From Crocinitomix sp. (lineage in GTDB: Bacteria > Bacteroidota > Bacteroidia > Flavobacteriales_D > Crocinitomicaceae): a DNA stretch of 64,000 bases. Made by a program: the position numbers and the translations under genes. Below the pieces are notes generated by a model. It was given only the letters and a program-made list of their open reading frames with translations. It did no database searches and had not been told where the DNA came from. Positions 6,104 through 59,896 of this stretch are shown one piece after another; within the stretch, counting starts at the first letter, position 1, and each line of letters begins with the position of its first letter. The stretch is taken from contig JAURQI010000134.1 of the NCBI GenBank assembly GCA_030836155.1, positions 17,639-81,638 on the forward strand, given 5' to 3'.

Positions 6104-6841
6104 TTAATAGAGTTTTTGACCTAAGTTAAATTGTAAATAGAGCGATACAAAATACCGTTGTGGGTCATTTTGATCTAACAATAAAATGGGATTTGTAGCA
6201 AAGCAGTCGGCCATTATTCCCAACTCGCCTCCACTGATTTTATTCTTAGTGCTGGCAAAATTAAAATCGACACCAGCTTTTGCAAATGCTCCAATTTCTA
6301 CACGCGATTCTCCAAATCCTTTTCCCCATGAAGACCGTGCTGTTATATTTTCTTTATTGTGCACGGCGGGGTCATAGCGTTCTTCAATCGTTGTATTTCC
6401 AACGTCTATTCTAACATAAACGGGTTTTACTAGACCAAAACTAGGCCCCAATGACCATTTAGCAGTTACCTCAATTCCGTTTTCTCGCTCAGATCGAAAA
6501 AGGGTACGCTTACCTCCGTAAGTTGGACGGAAGCATACTAAGGAATTTAATTTGCCATAAAAATAACCTCTAGAGCTCAAGTTGCTATAAATCTTATATT
6601 CTTTGGGATGTCGAATATTCGTTAATGTAAAACCAAATGTATTTCGATATTTGTAGTTTTTCTGTATGGCATATTCGAAGGCCACACCCCAGCCAGTTGA
6701 TCCAGCGTTGGTGTTGAAGTTCAGCCCAGCAAGTACATCACGACGCATTAATACACTGCCTTCATCTTTCTCGGGCTCTTGTCCAAATAAAGTGGCACTG
6801 AATAAAATCAAGCCTAGTATATATATGTATCTTAGTGGCAC
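6104..6841 (-). CDS. Hypothetical exported protein, probable outer-membrane beta-barrel; start revised to GTG 6841
   Basis: From GTG 6841 reads MPLRYIYILGLILFSATLFGQ (signal peptide); amphipathic strands; aromatic C-terminus; TAACTTTG box at 6854-6847. Confidence 0.6.
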   Translation of the reverse strand: MPLRYIYILGLILFSATLFGQEPEKDEGSVLMRRDVLAGLNFNTNAGSTGWGVAFEYAIQKNYKYRNTFGFTLTNIRHPKEYKIYSNLSSRGYFYGKLNSLVCFRPTYGGKRTLFRSERENGIEVTAKWSLGPSFGLVKPVYVRIDVGNTTIEERYDPAVHNKENITARSSWGKGFGESRVEIGAFAKAGVDFNFASTKNKISGGELGIMADCFATNPILLLDQNDPQRYFVSLYLQFNLGQKLY

Positions 6842-6907
6842 GTATACAAAGTTAGTCAAATACAACCGAGTAACCTTAGATTTGTTCAATTAATCAAAAG
6901 TTCATTC

Positions 6908-7875: not shown

Positions 7876-8274
7876 ATGCGTGCAATTGTTTCAAACAGAA
7901 AACTGTTTATTATCATGGATTATAAGGTTGAAATTCAATTTCAGGAATTAATCAAAAAATTAGAAAAGCGTTTTGGTGACGGTTTGGAAATGGACACGGT
8001 TATGTTACTTATCGGTGTTCAGGAACTTGGTCAAGGCTATTGGGAGTTTAGCAAAGATGAAAAGATGAACCTAATGCATATTGCGATTTGCACACTCTTA
8101 GAACCCTATGGTTTTTACAAATATGTGGCGAATGATGATGATGGCTGGCCGCACTTTGAGAAGGTAAAAAACTTGCCTCCAATTTCTAATCAACAACAGG
8201 AGCACCTCTTAAAAGAGGCTGTCATCAGCTATTTTACAGAGAATAAATATGTCGAAAACGAATCAGGAGATTAA
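7876..8274 (+). CDS. Conserved Bacteroidota hypothetical protein (true start may be ATG 7915)
   Basis: LLIGVQELGQG, FSKDEKMNLMHIAICTLLEPYG and GWPHF motifs resemble a family I recall from Bacteroidota. Confidence 0.7.
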   Translation: MRAIVSNRKLFIIMDYKVEIQFQELIKKLEKRFGDGLEMDTVMLLIGVQELGQGYWEFSKDEKMNLMHIAICTLLEPYGFYKYVANDDDGWPHFEKVKNLPPISNQQQEHLLKEAVISYFTENKYVENESGD

Positions 8275-8330: not shown

Positions 8331-9683
8331 ATGGAATTTCTTATTAAAGCAGGGCAGTTAATTTTAAGCTTGTCGATCTTGATTGTTTTACACGAGTTTG
8401 GACACTATTTGCCTGCACGCTGGTTTAAAACCCGTGTTGAGAAGTTTTATTTATTCTTCGATTATAAATTCTCATTATTCAAAAAGAAAATTGGTGAAAC
8501 CGAATGGGGGATCGGATGGATTCCCTTAGGTGGTTATGTCAAAATTTCAGGAATGATTGACGAGTCAATGGATAAAGAGCAAATGAAACAACCACCTAAA
8601 GAGTGGGAATTTCGTTCGAAACCAGCTTGGCAACGCTTGATTATTATGATTGGTGGGGTAGTGGTGAACATGATTGTTGGAATAGTGATCTATATTTTGG
8701 TGCTATTTGCTTGGGGAGAAGATTACATTGCTGCTGAGCATGTTCATAATGGATATGCTTTTCATGAGTATTATGAAGGTTTAGGATTTCAGGACGGAGA
8801 CAATGTTATTGCGGTTGATGGAGAAATGCCAAAGGATGTTGTTGACATCAACAAATTCATTCTATTAAGGGGAGCAAGAGAGATTACCGTAGAACGTAAT
8901 GGAGAAAATATCACCATCGCACTTCCTGAAGATGTCGATATGGAGGCTTTTAAACAAGGAGCAATGTCAGGTATTACACCTCGTTATTATGCCGTTATGG
9001 ACTCCGTTTTGGTGCCAGAATCAGAAGAGACTGCTGAAGACGAAATGCGACCAGCATTTTTGGCAGGTTTTGAAGATGGTGATAGTGTTGTTGCAGTCAA
9101 CAATCAGCCGGTCGTTTTTTGGGATGAGTTTACTTCCATTATTAATGAAAGCGAGAATGAAGTCGTTGCTATTGATTTCTATCGAAATGATTTACCACAA
9201 TCACTCAAAGTTCAAGTAGACAGTAATGGACGAATTGGCGTAGCACCAAAACGCCTTAGTCAATCGTTTATCATATCACATGATGATTATTCATTCGGAG
9301 AATCTATTCCTGGTGGTTTAGCGCTAGGTGTAAATACCCTAAAAGATTATGTTTCTCAGTTGAAGTTCTTGTTCACAGAAAAAGGTGCTTCAAGTATTGG
9401 CGGTTTTGGGGCTTTCGGAAGTTTATTCTCGCCCACATGGGATTGGGAGGTATTCTGGAGTATGACTGCCTTTATTTCAATCATGTTGGCTTTTATGAAT
9501 TTCTTACCGATTCCAGCGTTGGATGGAGGGCATATTATGTTCTTGTTATATGAAATGATATCAGGAAGAAAACCGAATGAGAAGGTAATGGAATATGCCC
9601 AACTCTTTGGTATTATTCTTCTCCTTTCACTCTTGGTATATGCCAATGGGAATGACATTTATAAGGCAATCTTTGGAGATTAA
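8331..9683 (+). CDS. rseP: RIP metalloprotease RseP (M50, PDZ-containing)
   Basis: HEFGH zinc motif; IPLGGYVKI; NFLPIPALDGGH; PDZ-like segments. Confidence 0.96.
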   Translation: MEFLIKAGQLILSLSILIVLHEFGHYLPARWFKTRVEKFYLFFDYKFSLFKKKIGETEWGIGWIPLGGYVKISGMIDESMDKEQMKQPPKEWEFRSKPAWQRLIIMIGGVVVNMIVGIVIYILVLFAWGEDYIAAEHVHNGYAFHEYYEGLGFQDGDNVIAVDGEMPKDVVDINKFILLRGAREITVERNGENITIALPEDVDMEAFKQGAMSGITPRYYAVMDSVLVPESEETAEDEMRPAFLAGFEDGDSVVAVNNQPVVFWDEFTSIINESENEVVAIDFYRNDLPQSLKVQVDSNGRIGVAPKRLSQSFIISHDDYSFGESIPGGLALGVNTLKDYVSQLKFLFTEKGASSIGGFGAFGSLFSPTWDWEVFWSMTAFISIMLAFMNFLPIPALDGGHIMFLLYEMISGRKPNEKVMEYAQLFGIILLLSLLVYANGNDIYKAIFGD

Positions 9684-9691
9684 TTAATCTC
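9676..9691. repeat. Perfect 16-bp palindrome spanning the rseP stop codon
   Basis: GAGATTAATTAATCTC. Confidence 0.8.
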
Positions 9692-9709
9692 ATCTTAATT
9701 TGAGTTGAA

Positions 9710-10038
9710 AGAGAAAGTGCATGAGCATTAGGCCATGTTAAATGCGCGCGAGCTAACCTTTTGTCTTTCGTCCATCATCTGATATCATTTAAGGAACAAT
9801 GGAGAGGGAAGATGCACACGCATTACGCTAGGCTAAATGCGCGCGAGCAAATCTTTTGTCTTTCGTCTATGATCTAATTTCATTTATGGAGCAATGGAGA
9901 GGGAAGGTGCACACGCATTACGCTAGGCTAAATGCGCGCGAGCAAATCTTTTGTCTTTCGTCCATCATCTGATATCATTTAAGGGGGAATGGAGAGGGAA
10001 GGTGCACACGCATTACGCTAGGCTACATGCGCGCGAGC
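9710..10038. repeat. Tandem array of 95-bp units: three full copies, a partial fourth and a degenerate upstream half-copy
   Basis: TA(A/C)ATGCGCGCGAGC starts at 9739, 9834, 9929 and 10024 (period exactly 95); conserved TTTTGTCTTTCGTC and ATGGAGAGGGAAG(A/G)TGCACACGCATTACGCTAGGC; degenerate copy from about 9710. Confidence 0.95.
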
Positions 10039-10050
10039 TTGAGCGAATTA

Positions 10051-10058
10051 CAAAGTTA
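10051..10058 (-). promoter_or_regulatory. Bacteroidota -7 promoter element pointing into the 95-bp array
   Basis: TAACTTTG on the minus strand, 12 nt from the array edge; no matching -33 TTTG found. Confidence 0.5.
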
Positions 10059-10059
10059 T

Positions 10060-10105
10060 TCCTTTTGATTGGATAAGCTATGTCCTTTTGATTGGATAAG
10101 CTATG
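10060..10105. repeat. Perfect 23-bp tandem duplication
   Basis: TCCTTTTGATTGGATAAGCTATG at 10060-10082 and 10083-10105. Confidence 0.95.
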
Positions 10106-10125
10106 CTATAGTAGGTGACATGGTG

Positions 10126-12360
10126 TTAATTATTCGCGCCGTCTTCAATCGTATATGTTAAACGTACAATGATAAACTCTGTACGACGATTTACTTGATG
10201 TTGTTCTTTTGAACATCTAACGCCATCAGCACACTCGTTTACTAAACGTGATTCACCGTAACCCTTACCAGTAATACGATCTGGGTTAGTGATTCGTTCC
10301 TTGATATAATTAGCAGATGCTAGGGCACGTTTTTGAGACAATTTCATATTAGAAGTAGCGCTTCCACGTGAATCAGTATGCGAACCTATTTCGATCACCA
10401 TTTCTGGGTTTTCATTCATTACCTTAACGATCTTATCCAGTTCAATAGCAGCATCCGGACGAATATTATAGCGTCCTACATCAAAATAGATGGGATTGAT
10501 GTCAATCATTTTTGAAAGATCTTGTCCAAGCTCGACTTTTTCTAAGGTAATATCCATGTCTGTATGCAGGTTATAAATGCCTTCTTTGTCGAATACGAGA
10601 TTGTACGTAATTGTTTTGTAGAAGTAACCTTCCCTTTCGAAAGTGAAGTTATAACTTCCGCGGTCATCTAATTTTTTATCTGCAACAGCTCTTCTATAAC
10701 TTCCAGATTCATCTGTGATATGATTATCAGTTGATCCTTTCATGTTGTCTGTGATTGACATTTTAACGCTATCCAAAGGTTGACCAGACTTTTTATCAGT
10801 CACTAGAGCATAGATCGAAATTCCAGGATCTTTTTCAAGCATAAGGTCCGCTTTCACGGTTTTTTCAGCGGTTAATGTGTTGACTTTACCGTGTCCATCG
10901 AAATATTCATCTTTTTCTCCGAGTAATTTGAATTCCTTATCGGAATCCACCTGGTACATAAAAACACCGTTTTCATCTGTTGTTGTATATTCTTCTCCGC
11001 CGTCTGTTAAATTCATAAGGGTGATCACAACATCTGGCAATGGATTACCTTTTTTATCAAGGGCCAAACCTTCAATTGTTTTTTGATCGACAGCAAAAGA
11101 ATAAATATCCATACCACCAAAACCTCCATTTCGATTAGAAGAAAAATATCCTCTCTTACCATCTTGCGTAAAGCTTAGGTAAATGTCATCACCTGCTGAG
11201 TTCATTGGGTAGCCTAGGTTTTCTGGGTATGACCATTCTCCATTGACCAATTCAGATTTGTAAAAATCATATCCGCCAGAACTGTTATGCCCTTTTGATG
11301 AAAAGTATAAGGTCTGCCCGTCTGGAGATAGGTAAGGACTGTCCTCATTTTTTTCCGAATTAATAACCGGAGAGATACGCTTTGGCTGTGACCATAAAGA
11401 GTCTTCAAGATGACTAATGTATAAGTCAAGATTACCGCCTTCAAATTCAGGAACAGTCATTGCGCTGAAAATTATTGTCTTACCTGAATCAGCAAAAACG
11501 CCATGTGGTTGAAAGTAAAAATTGGAAAGTGGCTTCGGTAAAGGCTCTATTTCGTTTAGTCGATCCTTGTCAATTGACGATAGCCATATCTTATTCTTAT
11601 AAAAGATGAGGATATCATTATTGTCATAACGCGTTCCGATTACAGCGTGATGGTTATCTTGTTTGATTCCTGGATTATAGCTTGAGGCAACCGATTCTTC
11701 CAAATCGAAGTAATAGATATTCTCGTAGTACTTATTATCGATGGTGATTTCTTCCGTTTCAAAATCTTTGTAACGGGCATTGTATAATAATAAGCTATCG
11801 CCTTCTAGAAAAACTGGTGTATATTCTGAATCTACTGAATTGATGAAGAAGTCCATATTTTGAACCGTATACGTCGTATTGTCGTTAACAATTTGTTGGT
11901 TTTTAATGGCGTAACGACACGACTCAAGATTTTCGTCAATTTCTTGTTGAACTAATTTTAACCTCCCTTTATTTGCTGTTATTTTTTTGTAAACGAGATA
12001 GGCATCTATCGCTTCATAGTGCCGTTCTTGCATTCGAAGACAATTCCCTTGATGAAAGAATACCAAATCATTTGTGTCAGCGACTACATTATTTAATCGC
12101 TTATCGATATAAGTAGCAGCAGAATCAAAGATTTCATAACGATACAAATAAATATCAATAAGTCCCTCTTGGGCGCTAGCGTTATCAACGTCAAGTTCGA
12201 GAACTTGCTTATATGTTTTTATAGCCTGAGGAAAGTCTAAAGAGCCTTTAAGTTTTTTTGCATCATGCAATAAGCTCTTAATTTCTCGTTGCGCGTGCAG
12301 CCCTTGTCCTGATATTAGGATGAGCATTAATAAAAATATGGACCAAGTTCCTTTTAACAT
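10126..12360 (-). CDS. OmpA-family peptidoglycan-binding protein with TPR, PD40 and carboxypeptidase-regulatory-like domains (PorE-like architecture)
   Basis: N-terminal TPR-like helices; PD40 repeats (PYLSPDGQTLYFSS, GYFSSNRNGGFGGMDIY); OmpA_C domain IYFDVGRYNIRPDA...SHTDSRG...LSQKRA...NRRTEF. Confidence 0.88.
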   Translation of the reverse strand: MLKGTWSIFLLMLILISGQGLHAQREIKSLLHDAKKLKGSLDFPQAIKTYKQVLELDVDNASAQEGLIDIYLYRYEIFDSAATYIDKRLNNVVADTNDLVFFHQGNCLRMQERHYEAIDAYLVYKKITANKGRLKLVQQEIDENLESCRYAIKNQQIVNDNTTYTVQNMDFFINSVDSEYTPVFLEGDSLLLYNARYKDFETEEITIDNKYYENIYYFDLEESVASSYNPGIKQDNHHAVIGTRYDNNDILIFYKNKIWLSSIDKDRLNEIEPLPKPLSNFYFQPHGVFADSGKTIIFSAMTVPEFEGGNLDLYISHLEDSLWSQPKRISPVINSEKNEDSPYLSPDGQTLYFSSKGHNSSGGYDFYKSELVNGEWSYPENLGYPMNSAGDDIYLSFTQDGKRGYFSSNRNGGFGGMDIYSFAVDQKTIEGLALDKKGNPLPDVVITLMNLTDGGEEYTTTDENGVFMYQVDSDKEFKLLGEKDEYFDGHGKVNTLTAEKTVKADLMLEKDPGISIYALVTDKKSGQPLDSVKMSITDNMKGSTDNHITDESGSYRRAVADKKLDDRGSYNFTFEREGYFYKTITYNLVFDKEGIYNLHTDMDITLEKVELGQDLSKMIDINPIYFDVGRYNIRPDAAIELDKIVKVMNENPEMVIEIGSHTDSRGSATSNMKLSQKRALASANYIKERITNPDRITGKGYGESRLVNECADGVRCSKEQHQVNRRTEFIIVRLTYTIEDGANN

Positions 12361-12532: not shown

Positions 12533-13801
12533 TTAAGTCTTTCTTTTTTTCTTTTTCGCGGCTGGAAAAAGGATATTATTTAAGATTAGTCTATAACCAG
12601 GGGAGTTTGGATGAAGGTTCAGGTCTGTTGGTGGATCACCTACTAAGTGACGATAATCTTCTGGATCGTGGCCACCATAGAAAGTCCAGGTTCCCTGTCC
12701 GAATTCACCGTGGAGATAGCGTGCCGTTCCAATTGCTTTGTTTTCCCCCATGACAAGTACATCAGGTTTTATAAATTCAGTGCGGAAATCCGTGGTTTGT
12801 CCCATGAATCCATCAATCTCCTTCGTATGATTTTGACAAAGCATGGTTGGAACAATATCCCATTTTGCAGAAAAGTCAAAAAGGTAAAATTTATCCTGAT
12901 TTTCGGCCACTCGCGTGTGGTCACGGGTTCCGTCAATATCGGAATACTCATATTCCATGGGATCTTTTGAAACCGTATAATCCTTAAAAGCTAAAGTCTG
13001 TGTATAATCAATTTGGCTTTGAAAATAAGGTGTTGATGGATCATGATCATACATGTGTTCACAAATATCTGTATTCATGGCGCTTAAGGCAATATCATAA
13101 CTGTCTGTTCCAGAACACATCGTGAATAAAAAACCACCACCTGCGACAAATTCTCGAATACGAATGGCAACATTTAGTTTCAATTCAGATACTTTTTTGA
13201 AGCCTAGTTTTTTCGCTGTCGCTTCGTTATCGCGCACTTGTTTCTGATACCAAGACTGAGTATGATAGGCCCTGTAAAATTTGCCGTACTGTCCTGTAAA
13301 GTCTTCATGATGCAAATGCAGCCAATCAAATTCTGGCAAACCATTCATGACAACGGTCGAATCATAAATCTCCTCGTAAGGAATTTCAGCATAAGTTAGA
13401 ACCAGCGTGACGGCATCATCCCAAGGTTGTTTTCCAGTTGGTGTGTATACGGCAATCTTAGGCGCTTTTTCCAATTGAACAACTTCCATATTTGCTTCTG
13501 GATTTGCAATATCAGATTTTATTTTTTTTACTTTAACATCCGGTAATACGGAGTAGGAAATACCTCTTACAATTAGTTCTTCTTCGATCAAGGAATGATG
13601 TGGAAAAAGAAAACTACCTCCACGATAATTTAACAACCATTCCATCACAATTTCGCGTTCGAGCGCCCAATAAGCAACACCATATGCTTTCAGATGATTT
13701 TTTTGCGATTCATCCATAGGAACAAGTATAGTCGAGGCATTTGCCTCAGCGCTAATACTTATGAGTAGAAATAATAGTATGTTAGAAAGGTACCTCTTCA
13801 C
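12533..13801 (-). CDS. Conserved exported Bacteroidota protein with glutamine-amidotransferase-like core (often labelled 'asparagine synthetase B')
   Basis: Signal peptide; NHLKAYGVAYW; DWLHLHHEDFTGQYGKF; GGFLFTMCSGTD; GGHDPED; GTG start overlaps the dnaB 3' end by 20 nt. Confidence 0.7.
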   Translation of the reverse strand: MKRYLSNILLFLLISISAEANASTILVPMDESQKNHLKAYGVAYWALEREIVMEWLLNYRGGSFLFPHHSLIEEELIVRGISYSVLPDVKVKKIKSDIANPEANMEVVQLEKAPKIAVYTPTGKQPWDDAVTLVLTYAEIPYEEIYDSTVVMNGLPEFDWLHLHHEDFTGQYGKFYRAYHTQSWYQKQVRDNEATAKKLGFKKVSELKLNVAIRIREFVAGGGFLFTMCSGTDSYDIALSAMNTDICEHMYDHDPSTPYFQSQIDYTQTLAFKDYTVSKDPMEYEYSDIDGTRDHTRVAENQDKFYLFDFSAKWDIVPTMLCQNHTKEIDGFMGQTTDFRTEFIKPDVLVMGENKAIGTARYLHGEFGQGTWTFYGGHDPEDYRHLVGDPPTDLNLHPNSPGYRLILNNILFPAAKKKKRKT

Positions 13802-59519: not shown

Positions 59520-59789
59520 TTATCGACGTAATTTCAATTCTTTTACAATCGCTCTGTATCGCTCAATGTCTGTCTTTTTCAAGTAGTCCAATAAGCTTCT
59601 TCTCTTACCAACGAGTAATTGAAGTGAACGTTGTGTACCGAAATCTTTTCGGTTCTTTTTTAAATGCTCAGTCAAGTGTGCAATTCTGTAAGTGAATAAT
59701 GCAATTTGACCTTCTGAGCTACCAGTATCAGTGTCACCCGATCCGTGCTTTTTAAATATTTCTTTTTTCTTTTCAGCTGATAAATACAT
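59520..59789 (-). CDS. rpsO: 30S ribosomal protein S15
   Basis: DTGSSEGQIALFT; HLKKNRKD; LLVGKRRSLLDYL. Confidence 0.98.
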   Translation of the reverse strand: MYLSAEKKKEIFKKHGSGDTDTGSSEGQIALFTYRIAHLTEHLKKNRKDFGTQRSLQLLVGKRRSLLDYLKKTDIERYRAIVKELKLRR

Positions 59790-59896
59790 GCCAATATTAT
59801 TTCAATGATTCTTATGTAATATACTCTTATCGTCGGCAAATATAGTACTAATTTCTAATAGCGGCTATTTTCCACCTATTTATTTAGGTTTTTATC

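What the first reader, a model, noticed from the sequence alone, without database searches (positions are those of the whole stretch)
9676..10058. Structured 95-bp tandem array with its own promoter: candidate multimeric non-coding RNA system
SEEN: three full 95-bp units (9739, 9834, 9929), a partial fourth and a degenerate half-copy fill the gap between convergent rseP and the PorE-like gene. A perfect TAACTTTG -7 box (minus strand, 10058-10051) points into the array and would give a transcript of about 335 nt. On the minus strand each unit forms a 10-bp stem CGCGCGCAUU/AAUGCGUGUG that needs two G-U pairs (A-C mismatches on the plus strand). The degenerate copy keeps GCAUU/AAUGC while about half of its 11-nt loop has changed. 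A second stem (TCTTTC-g-TC[C/T]AT / ATGGA-GAGGGA) folds better on the plus strand. Differences between units concentrate in a ~26-nt middle segment, yet CATTTA in that segment is invariant and complementary to the invariant TAAATG, so an alternative fold or pseudoknot is possible. Each minus-strand unit also starts a tiny ORF (MISDDGRKTKDLLARI; MKLDHRRKTKDLLARI; truncated in unit 1). KNOWN: promoter-driven arrays of structured RNA repeats processed to monomers occur in type III toxin-antitoxin systems (ToxI, CptI, TenpI); REP/BIME clusters also sit between convergent genes. INFERENCE: an orphan structured-RNA array with no toxin, cas or transposase gene nearby, or a REP-like element.
Basis: partly seen in the sequence, partly recalled or inferred. 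Interest (0 to 1): 0.7.

Follow-up and report, generated by a model that had tools for sequence, protein, structure and literature searches.

The report
Strain-variable 95-bp hairpin repeat array
The 95-bp tandem array between two convergent genes of a marine Crocinitomicaceae bacterium is real, but it looks like an ordinary species-specific, copy-number-variable repeat built around a palindromic hairpin that also occurs singly elsewhere, not a promoter-driven non-coding RNA system.

Summary
Three full 95-bp units, a partial fourth and a degenerate edge copy fill the 442-bp gap between convergent rseP and a PorE/CHU_0125-like OmpA gene. Each unit carries a 10-bp-stem hairpin that folds well only as minus-strand RNA (-16.5 kcal/mol, z about -3).

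The preferred reading, a self-promoted multimeric ncRNA like ToxI, is not supported:
- No Rfam family matches and no toxin or defence gene is nearby.
- The TAACTTTG box occurs at chance frequency, lacks a -33 TTG and is polymorphic (TAACTTAG).
- RNA contigs run unbroken from the PorE-like ORF across the proposed start, and none covers the array interior.
- The two stems favour opposite strands, and 11 unit variants show no compensatory change.
- The tiny ORFs are broken in some strains.
- Syntenic loci of the closest relatives (86% and 84% RseP identity) lack the array.

Near-identical strains carry two or three units with mosaic variants. The ~41-nt hairpin module also occurs as solitary copies in other contigs of the same metagenomes.

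Best reading: a REP/BIME-like palindromic element amplified locally into a VNTR. It is transcribed, if at all, as the 3' tails of the flanking mRNAs. Interest is low.

The parts
9684..9737 (.). Degenerate left-edge half copy of the unit. It includes a decayed hairpin (arms 9720-9729 / 9741-9750, 8 of 10 pairs on either strand).
   Evidence: Sequence. nhmmer gives a weak match at 9684-9735. The hairpin pattern matches with 7 substitutions at 9719.
9738..9832 (.). Unit A (95 bp)
   Evidence: TRF; nhmmer E 1e-32; population variants.
9833..9927 (.). Unit B (95 bp). It has the most divergent middle segment and is absent from the L006 form of the array.
9928..10022 (.). Unit C (95 bp). It is absent from the two-unit form found in L002, L005, L007, L009, L097 and L104.
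10023..10038 (.). Partial fourth copy. It supplies the right arm of the terminal hairpin (CTACATGCGCGCGAGC).
9815..9845 (-). Hairpin 1: 10-bp stem and 11-nt loop. The same hairpin recurs at 9910-9940 and 10005-10035. It folds well only on the minus strand, where two pairs are G-U. With a few flanking bases (9808-9848) it is the ~41-nt module that also occurs as solitary copies elsewhere.
   Evidence: Pair counts; fold energies; solitary copies in other contigs.
9764..9809 (+). Stem 2 (TCTTTC-g-TCCAT / ATGGA-GAGGGA). It recurs at 9859-9904 and 9954-9999 and pairs 99% on the plus strand but 77% on the minus strand.
   Evidence: plus-strand minimum-energy folds.
9981..10004 (-). C-rich, G-free tract (CACCTTCCCTCTCCATTCCCCCTT on the minus strand) directly 3' of the hairpin in the PorE-like transcript direction. 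It is repeated, slightly varied, in each unit. I infer it may be a Rho-loading-like tract.
   Evidence: Read from the sequence. The functional reading is inference only.
10051..10058 (-). TAACTTTG, the -7-box-like motif. It lies in the degenerate third copy of the 23-bp repeat, has no TTG about 20 nt upstream, and is TAACTTAG in part of the population.
   Evidence: (L006).
10053..10105 (.). Second small tandem repeat (23 bp x 2.3) between the array and the stop codon of the PorE-like gene.
   Evidence: TRF. It is identical in all same-species contigs.
8331..9683 (+). rseP (RIP metalloprotease), converging on the array.
   Evidence: Pfam PF02163; TIGR00054 at 212 bits, above the 147.55 cut-off.
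10126..12360 (-). PorE/CHU_0125-like TPR-PD40-CarboxypepD_reg-OmpA outer-membrane protein gene, converging on the array.

Best explanation
The array is a species-specific minisatellite (VNTR). A ~41-nt imperfect palindrome also exists as single copies at a few other intergenic places in the same organism. At this locus it was duplicated in tandem together with ~54 nt of local linker sequence, probably by replication slippage or unequal recombination.

The array keeps changing by unequal crossover and gene conversion, so strains carry two or three units and mosaic units.

It has no promoter of its own. Its outer units are transcribed only as the 3' tails of the two convergent mRNAs. There the first hairpin met by each transcript most likely acts as a 3'-end barrier, terminator or attenuator. 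For the PorE-like mRNA this would be the strong minus-strand hairpin followed by a C-rich, G-free tract. For rseP it would be the hairpin followed by a U-rich tract.

The number of units is probably neutral.

Shown: the array, its polymorphism, its absence in relatives, the solitary copies, and the strand asymmetry. Inferred: the duplication mechanism and the 3'-end/terminator role.
For: 1. Contigs encoding an identical RseP carry a 442-bp or a 347-bp gap, a difference of exactly one unit. Different units are missing (A-B in L002/L005/L007/L009; A-C in L006). L003 and L004 have units that are mosaics of B and C. In run X2, the words specific to unit B and to the B-to-C junction lie at about 0.3-0.55 of flank depth, so the forms appear to co-exist in one sample.
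2. The syntenic rseP/PorE-like gaps of the nearest relatives have unrelated sequence and no tandem repeat. This holds for L091 (86% RseP identity, 258-bp gap) and L092 (84%), and no proto-unit is detectable. Eighty more distant loci also lack it.
3. Solitary ~41-nt copies of the hairpin module (3 mismatches) lie inside other long contigs, for example a 13,311-bp contig in X1 at positions 6366-6406. Identical flanks recur in X1, X2, X4, X12 and X32, and there are at least two more junction types.
4. Word depth in the array is only about 1-3x that of the flanks, so the element is not high-copy.
5. Of 11 metatranscriptome runs, 6 have contigs at the locus. The rseP-side pieces end at 9662, 9737 and 9752; the last is an adapter-bounded insert ending at the base of the first hairpin. 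The pieces on the PorE-like side run from inside the ORF and end at 9982/9983, 10030 and 10043. None covers 9753-9981. DNA runs of similar depth do show interior pieces.
6. Only the hairpin is thermodynamically unusual; whole units and the whole array are not (z -0.9 to -2.1).
7. The two genes have no canonical hairpin-plus-U terminator.
8. REPs are described as lying mostly downstream of ORFs, between convergent or unidirectional genes, and as acting as RNA hairpins (PMC3733652).
Against: - The RNA data are thin (depth 2-7), unstranded (Logan contigs) and may contain DNA. The 3'-end role therefore rests on a handful of fragments, and the X26 and X27 pieces are nearly identical and may not be independent.
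- The solitary copies could not be fetched. Their exact sequence, gene context and membership in the same genome are inferred from co-occurrence in five runs from five studies.
- Only about 3 extra copies were seen and none lies in the other 63.5 kb of the window, so 'dispersed family' is a weak claim.
- The hairpin lacks the GTAG or CGTC end tag of the main REP superfamilies.
- The two-unit forms could in principle be short-read assembly collapses. No long read spanned the locus: the nanopore run X21 gave no usable reads.
- At 84-86% protein identity, neutral intergenic DNA is expected to be unalignable anyway.
Confidence: 0.6

Rival explanations
1. Independent non-coding RNA system. A Bacteroidota-type promoter at 10058-10051 drives a ~335-nt minus-strand transcript of repeated structured units. 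These units act as a multimer or are processed to monomers, like type III antitoxin RNAs.
For: - The hairpin is markedly more stable on the minus strand and needs G-U pairs there.
- A TAnnTTTG match points into the array.
- RNA data are too thin to exclude low or conditional expression.
Against: - No Rfam family matches, even at E up to 10.
- TAnnTTTG occurs 73 times against 75.4 expected in the window, so one in a 442-bp gap is unremarkable.
- There is no TTG about 20 nt upstream (sequence).
- The box is TAACTTAG in L006 and in runs X4, X12, X26 and X27.
- RNA contigs cross the box and the proposed start site unbroken from the PorE-like ORF, and none covers the interior.
- Stem 2 prefers the opposite strand. 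The two population SNPs inside stem 1 keep pairing only on the plus strand, and there are no compensatory changes.
- Whole-unit fold z-scores are unremarkable.
- The array is absent from syntenic relatives.
- No toxin or defence protein is adjacent, and a minus-strand transcript would run antisense into rseP.
Confidence: 0.07
2. Purely neutral junk. The array is a slippage-generated minisatellite with no role even as a 3'-end structure, and the hairpin similarity at other loci reflects shared ancestry of decaying mobile-element remnants.
For: - It is species-specific and varies in copy number.
- SNPs break stems, and there is no covariation.
- The gap also holds a second unrelated 23-bp tandem duplication, which suggests a slippage-prone spot.
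- Relatives show insertions and turnover at the same gap: L092 has 1.25 kb and L095 has three genes.
Against: - The hairpin arms are far better conserved among units and strains than the middle segment.
- The RNA fragment ends sit at or just past hairpins.
- These points are suggestive only. Homogenisation by gene conversion could also keep the arms alike.
Confidence: 0.22
3. DNA-level element. The repeated palindromes would be binding or cleavage sites for a protein, such as a gyrase or nucleoid protein as at E. coli BIMEs, or a Y1/HUH transposase that recognises single-stranded hairpins. The strand asymmetry would then reflect recognition of one DNA strand.
For: - It is an imperfect palindrome with strand-asymmetric mismatches.
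- Solitary copies occur elsewhere.
- REPs are proposed to be mobilised by RAYT transposases acting on single-stranded hairpins (PMC3733652).
Against: - No transposase lies within about 5 kb.
- There is no GTAG or CGTC tag (sequence).
- Very few copies were seen, and the rest of the genome could not be inspected.
Confidence: 0.08
4. Micro-protein genes. Each unit would encode a 16-aa peptide on the minus strand.
For: ATG-initiated 16-codon ORFs are present in units B and C.
Against: - The ORF is 11 codons in unit A of the window and of most strains, and is 'MK*' in unit 2 of L003/L004.
- The N-terminal halves differ (ISDDG against KLDHR).
- No relative has it.
Confidence: 0.01

Closest known systems
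REP / BIME elements (repetitive extragenic palindromes and their clustered arrays, e.g. in E. coli and Pseudomonas)
   Same: - A short imperfect palindrome (31 nt; 41 nt with its conserved flanks) lying downstream of ORFs between convergent genes.
- It occurs both singly and in a local tandem cluster.
- It is plausibly transcribed as mRNA 3' tails.
- It is species-specific.
   Different: - Only a handful of copies were seen, not tens to hundreds.
- There is no GTAG or CGTC tag.
- The hairpins in the cluster are all in direct orientation with a 54-nt linker, not alternating inverted REPs with short linkers.
- No RAYT gene was seen in the accessible DNA.
MIRU-type VNTR minisatellites of mycobacteria (40-100-bp intergenic tandem repeats that vary in copy number between strains; from my own knowledge)
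   Same: - The unit is 95 bp and lies between genes.
- Copy number varies between near-identical strains.
- Unit variants are mosaic, consistent with unequal recombination.
   Different: MIRUs occur as whole units at about 40 loci and sit inside operons, overlapping stop and start codons. Here only the hairpin part is seen elsewhere, and the array lies between convergent 3' ends.
BOX elements of Streptococcus pneumoniae (modular boxA-boxB(n)-boxC with a tandemly repeated 45-nt boxB; from my own knowledge)
   Same: A modular intergenic element with an internally repeated module, predicted hairpins and a variable number of repeats.
   Different: BOX elements have more than 100 dispersed copies with defined terminal modules. 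There is no sequence similarity, and the phylum is different.
Type III toxin-antitoxin RNA arrays (ToxI, CptI, TenpI)
   Same: Tandem direct repeats in non-coding DNA with predicted structure.
   Different: - The unit is 95 nt, against roughly 35-45 nt.
- There is no co-oriented downstream toxin gene.
- There is no convincing promoter and no RNA evidence.
- No Rfam family matches.

Membership tests
Type III TA antitoxin RNA array (ToxI/CptI/TenpI) | A toxin endoribonuclease gene (ToxN/AbiQ, CptN or TenpN) immediately downstream of the repeats and co-oriented with them | tested here: not met
   In the minus-strand direction the array is followed by the 3' end of rseP in antisense. The neighbours are RseP, a PorE/CHU_0125-like OmpA protein, CvpA, OsmC, LipA and DnaB. 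PADLOC gives no toxin or defence hit except a generic OmpA/MotB domain match.
Type III TA antitoxin RNA array (ToxI/CptI/TenpI) | Short repeat unit of about 35-45 nt, several copies (from my own knowledge) | tested here: not met
   The unit is 95 bp with 3.3 copies.
Type III TA antitoxin RNA array (ToxI/CptI/TenpI) | Own promoter; transcript processed into monomers | tested here: inconclusive
   The -7-like box occurs at chance frequency and is polymorphic. Unstranded RNA contigs cross it from the PorE-like ORF, and none covers the interior. Processing cannot be tested with these data.
Any curated RNA family (Rfam 15) | Covariance-model match | tested here: not met
   Nothing reaches gathering score in the region. 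At E up to 10 there are only three chance-level hits, to eukaryotic families outside the units. No tRNA or tmRNA is found.
REP / BIME | Imperfect palindrome of 20-40 bp | tested here: met
   The hairpin has a 10-bp stem with two strand-asymmetric mismatches and an 11-nt loop, 31 nt in all. The definition comes from PMC3733652.
REP / BIME | Extragenic, mainly downstream of ORFs, between convergent or unidirectional genes | tested here: met
   It lies between the stop codons of convergent rseP and the PorE-like gene. Solitary copy 2 abuts a terminator-like AAAAAACCCGGTCGACC sequence.
REP / BIME | Many dispersed copies per genome | tested here: inconclusive
   At least 2-3 further solitary copies occur in other contigs of the same samples. 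None lies in the other 63.5 kb of the window. Word depth is only 1-3x the flanks. The JGI scan found only this locus. No whole genome was available.
REP / BIME | GTAG or CGTC tetranucleotide tag at one end of the palindrome | tested here: not met
   Read from the sequence: the arms end in GTGCACAC and GCGCGAGC. GTAG appears only inside the loop of the terminal copy. The definition comes from PMC3733652.
REP / BIME | Associated RAYT (Y1/HUH) transposase in the genome | not testable with these tools
   Only 64 kb of this genome is held, and no such gene lies among the neighbours within about 5 kb.
VNTR / minisatellite | Head-to-tail repeats of tens of bp whose copy number differs between strains | tested here: met
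   Contigs with an identical RseP have a 442-bp or a 347-bp gap, different units are lost, and some units are mosaic. Caveat: all are short-read assemblies, and no long read confirms the forms.
CRISPR array | Identical repeats separated by unrelated spacers; cas genes | tested here: not met
   The 'variable' 26-nt segments are diverged versions of one sequence, not unrelated spacers. No cas genes are present.

The most novel reading that the evidence does not exclude
The hairpin module could be the founding member of an untagged REP-like family in Crocinitomicaceae whose minus-strand RNA form is functional. On this reading the array would be a conditionally expressed multi-hairpin RNA, for example a decoy or sponge for an RNA-binding protein or RNase, or a tunable 3'-UTR stabiliser of the PorE-like mRNA whose strength varies with unit number. 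The thin, unstranded metatranscriptome data do not exclude this.
Probability: 0.08. Interest if true: 0.5.

Novelty: new member of a known kind. Interest (0 to 1): 0.17.

Why it matters
If the best reading is right, this is a routine piece of bacterial genome texture: a local VNTR built on a palindromic element.

Its practical value is modest:
- It is a strain-typing marker for an abundant, uncultured marine Crocinitomicaceae population.
- It explains why assemblies break at this spot.
- It is one more example that REP-like palindromes and their tandem amplification occur in Bacteroidota, where such elements are poorly catalogued.

It should not enter catalogues as a candidate ncRNA or antitoxin RNA.

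Tried and rejected
- **Rfam:** gathering and E<=10 scans gave nothing relevant. ARAGORN found nothing.
- **Plasmids and phages:** BLASTN of the whole gap gave no match.
- **IMG/VR:** three pattern scans (the hairpin core and two flanks of the solitary copies) gave only chance hairpins or nothing.
- **GTDB genome scan with RseP:** None of the 80 loci has a unit-like sequence, so the one genome scan could not be used to count copies in the source genome.
- **JGI metagenome pattern scan:** it returned only this locus, twice, plus three independent chance hairpins, about the number expected.
- **Covariation:** 11 distinct unit variants show only single-sided changes, so no R-scape-type support is possible. 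No covariance model was built because no homologues exist outside the species.
- **Nanopore run X21:** it gave no reads on the locus in the 2% sampled, so the copy-number forms are not confirmed by long reads.
- **RNA strand:** all RNA runs are kept as undirected contigs. The 11-nt adapter stubs on the X30 insert are common to both adapters.
- **Solitary-copy flanks:** they are not in the window or in any of the 109 loci held, and those loci could not be fetched.
- **Sigma-70-type promoter hits inside units:** dismissed. They occur at chance frequency, and as far as I know that promoter type is not the main one in Bacteroidota.
- **CRISPR, integron attC and micro-ORF readings:** considered and rejected on sequence grounds.
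Full report
**1. What is there**

The 442-bp gap between the stop codons of two convergent genes holds a tandem array.
- The genes are rseP (8331-9683, +) and a TPR/PD40/CarboxypepD_reg/OmpA gene (10126-12360, -).
- TRF reports the array at 9725-10038: period 95, 3.3 copies, 90% matches, score 516. It is the only long-period array in the 64 kb.
- A profile of the units places them at 9739-9832, 9833-9927 and 9928-10022. It also finds a weak half copy at the left edge (9684-9735) and a 16-nt partial copy at the right.
- Unit motifs occur nowhere else in the window.
- A second, unrelated 23-bp x 2.3 tandem repeat (10053-10105) lies between the array and the stop of the OmpA-family gene.
- RseP passes the curated TIGR00054 cut-off. 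The other gene is 'PorE-like' only loosely: it scores 300 bits to the CHU_0125 OmpA-like family and 192 bits to PorE, both below their cut-offs.
- The window carries an S15-Flavobacteria leader. RseP homologues place the organism in Crocinitomicaceae, with the nearest named relative Crocinitomix at about 74% identity. All sources are marine or estuarine metagenomes.

**2.

The details are correct, but they do not add up to one RNA.
- I re-registered the units so that both stems lie inside one segment and collected 11 distinct unit variants from 13 same-species contigs.
- Stem 1 (10 bp, 11-nt loop) forms standard pairs in 94% of cells on the minus strand and 75% on the plus strand.
- Stem 2 does the opposite: 99% on the plus strand and 77% on the minus strand.
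- The hairpin alone folds at -16.5 kcal/mol on the minus strand (z -2.7 to -3.2 against dinucleotide shuffles) and at -9.7 (z about 0) on the plus strand.
- Whole 95-nt units are unremarkable: z is -0.9 to -2.1 on the minus strand and about 0 on the plus strand. The whole 385-nt region has z near -2 on both strands, because units pair with each other.
- No base pair shows a double (compensatory) change.
- The two population SNPs inside stem 1 are both C>T on the plus strand (GCACACGTATT in L002; CATGTGCGCG in L005, L009, L097 and L104).
- The tiny minus-strand ORFs exist, but they are 11 codons in most A units and 'MK*' in unit 2 of L003/L004, so they are not maintained.

**3. Promoter and transcription**

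The promoter evidence is weak.
- TAACTTTG is at 10051-10058 on the minus strand. TAnnTTTG occurs 73 times in the window against 75.4 expected.
- No TTG lies about 20 nt upstream (sequence).
- The box is formed by the degenerate third copy of the 23-bp repeat.
- It reads TAACTTAG in L006 and in runs X4, X12, X26 and X27.

The RNA evidence does not support an array transcript.
- All RNA runs are unstranded Logan contigs at depth 2-7. Eleven were examined, and six have pieces at the locus.
- On the rseP side, pieces end at 9662 (X25), 9737 (X26) and 9752 (X30). The X30 piece is an adapter-bounded 140-nt insert that ends at the base of the first hairpin.
- On the other side, pieces run from inside the OmpA-family ORF, across the 23-bp repeats and the proposed promoter and start site, and end at 9982/9983 (X26, X27), 10030 (X25) and 10043 (X28).
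- No RNA piece covers 9753-9981.
- These ends are not graph artefacts. DNA unitigs of the same kind extend further in (to about 9784 and from about 9996) and show the interior as short pieces at comparable depth.
- What RNA there is therefore looks like the 3' tails of the two convergent mRNAs, not an array transcript starting near 10045.
- The evidence is thin, and X26 and X27 may not be independent.

**4. Conservation**

- Contigs that encode the identical RseP carry either the 442-bp gap (L001, L003, L004) or a 347-bp gap, exactly one unit shorter.
- Different units are missing. The array is A-B in L002, L005, L007, L009, L097 and L104, and A-C in L006.
- L003 and L004 come from independent assemblies and share units that are mosaics of B and C, as expected from gene conversion or unequal crossover.
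- In run X2, the words specific to unit B and to the B-to-C junction sit at about 0.55 and 0.3 of flank depth, which suggests the forms co-exist.
- Two contigs simply break inside the array (L008, L010).
- The nearest relatives keep the same gene order but not the array. L091 (86% RseP identity) has an unrelated 258-bp gap without tandem repeats. L092 (84%) has about 1.25 kb of other sequence. L095 (75%) has three genes inserted.
- No proto-unit is detectable, even with permissive nhmmer and short-word BLAST.
- Eighty more distant Flavobacteriales/Bacteroidota loci have nothing similar.
- The array is therefore young and specific to one species.

**5. The hairpin is not unique to this locus**

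- Laying DNA runs at 85-90% likeness showed a ~41-nt match to 9808-9848 (the hairpin plus a few flanking bases, 3 mismatches) inside other long contigs.
- One example is a 13,311-bp contig in X1 at positions 6366-6406.
- The flanks recur in X1, X2, X4, X12 and X32, which come from five studies. The left flank is ...CGAAT[G/A]ATTTATTCTGAATTTTAATTGAAA. The right flank is CTGAGCAAATAAAAAACCCGGTCGACCTAC..., which looks like a terminator.
- A second junction type appears in X1, X2 and X4, and a third in X2 only.
- These flanks are not in the window or in any locus I hold.
- Word depth in the array is only 1-3x the flanks. The JGI pattern scan found only this locus plus about the number of chance hairpins expected.
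- The family is therefore small, a handful of copies and not hundreds.

**6. Interpretation**

The simplest account of all this:
- A short imperfect palindrome exists at a few intergenic sites in this species. It is REP-like in size, imperfection and location (PMC3733652).
- At this site it was duplicated in tandem together with 54 nt of local linker.
- The array has since been homogenised and resized by recombination, while its left edge copy decayed.

Functionally, I think the outer hairpins act as 3'-end structures for the two convergent mRNAs.
- The PorE-like mRNA meets the strong minus-strand hairpin followed by a 24-nt C-rich, G-free tract (CACCTTCCCTCTCCATTCCCCCTT). That composition is typical of Rho loading sites (my own knowledge).
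- The rseP mRNA meets a hairpin followed by CUUUUGUCUUUC.
- Neither gene has a canonical terminator, and canonical terminators are not enriched in this genome: 7 found against 13 expected.
- This functional step is inference. A fully neutral minisatellite is the main rival (0.22).

**7. Comparison with known systems**

- As a type III antitoxin array it fails the defining tests. There is no co-oriented toxin gene, the unit length is wrong, there is no convincing promoter, and no RNA family matches.
- As a REP/BIME element it meets the palindrome and location criteria. It fails the GTAG/CGTC tag criterion, and high copy number was not shown.
- As a VNTR/minisatellite it meets the criteria, with the caveat that the alleles come from short-read assemblies.
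- I therefore file it as a new member of a known kind, a palindrome-containing intergenic VNTR, and not as a member of the tagged REP superfamilies.

**8. Verdict**

- The headline interpretation is not supported, and the fallback REP-like reading is partly supported.
- Interest is low (0.17).
- About 8% probability remains that the minus-strand hairpin array is a genuine conditional RNA element.

Noticed in passing
window 10053-10105: A separate 23-bp x 2.3 tandem repeat (consensus AAGCTATGTCCTTTTGATTGGAT) lies directly downstream of the PorE-like stop codon and is identical in all same-species contigs. Its degenerate third copy creates the TAACTTTG '-7 box'. The gap seems prone to tandem duplication.
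   Followed up: partly
other contigs of runs X1, X2, X4, X12, X32 (not fetchable); matches window 9808-9848 and 10004-10048: Solitary ~41-nt copies of the hairpin module occur at two or three other loci. One lies next to a terminator-like AAAAAACCCGGTCGACC sequence. Their gene contexts are unknown.
   Followed up: partly
L093 6373-6404 and L094 (relative with 76% RseP identity): A perfect 10-bp hairpin (GATCAACAAA/TTTGTTGATC, 12-nt loop) lies 23 nt after the rseP stop. Both independent contigs end 8 nt later, which suggests a different repeated palindromic element at the same position in a related species.
   Followed up: partly
L092 2247-3494; L095 3428-5891: The rseP/PorE-like gap is a hot spot of turnover in the family. 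In one relative it holds about 1.25 kb with an 84-aa ORF and apparently fragmented coding sequence. In another it holds three inserted genes, one with a weak cNMP-binding hit.
   Followed up: no
window 10126-12360 (-): The 'PorE-like' protein scores higher to NCBIfam CHU_0125 (OmpA-like outer-membrane integrity protein, 300 bits) than to T9SS PorE (192 bits). Both scores are far below the curated cut-offs, so its assignment to the type IX secretion system is uncertain.
   Followed up: partly
window 59787-59844 (-): An S15-Flavobacteria ribosomal protein leader (Rfam RF03161, 58.7 bits, above gathering score) is the only curated RNA family in the window.
   Followed up: no
window 9982-10181, RNA runs X26 and X27: Two RNA runs from different studies (a seawater metatranscriptome and an oligo-dT 'sediment' library) hold almost the same 197-199-nt contig at the same depth (4.3) with the same 10052 A>T variant. 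This may be cross-contamination or index hopping, so they may not be independent evidence.
   Followed up: no
window 12533-13801 (-), 6104-6889 (-), 7876-8274 (+): Three conserved neighbouring ORFs (422, 261 and 132 aa) have no Pfam, NCBIfam or PADLOC match. They are syntenic in the relatives.
   Followed up: no
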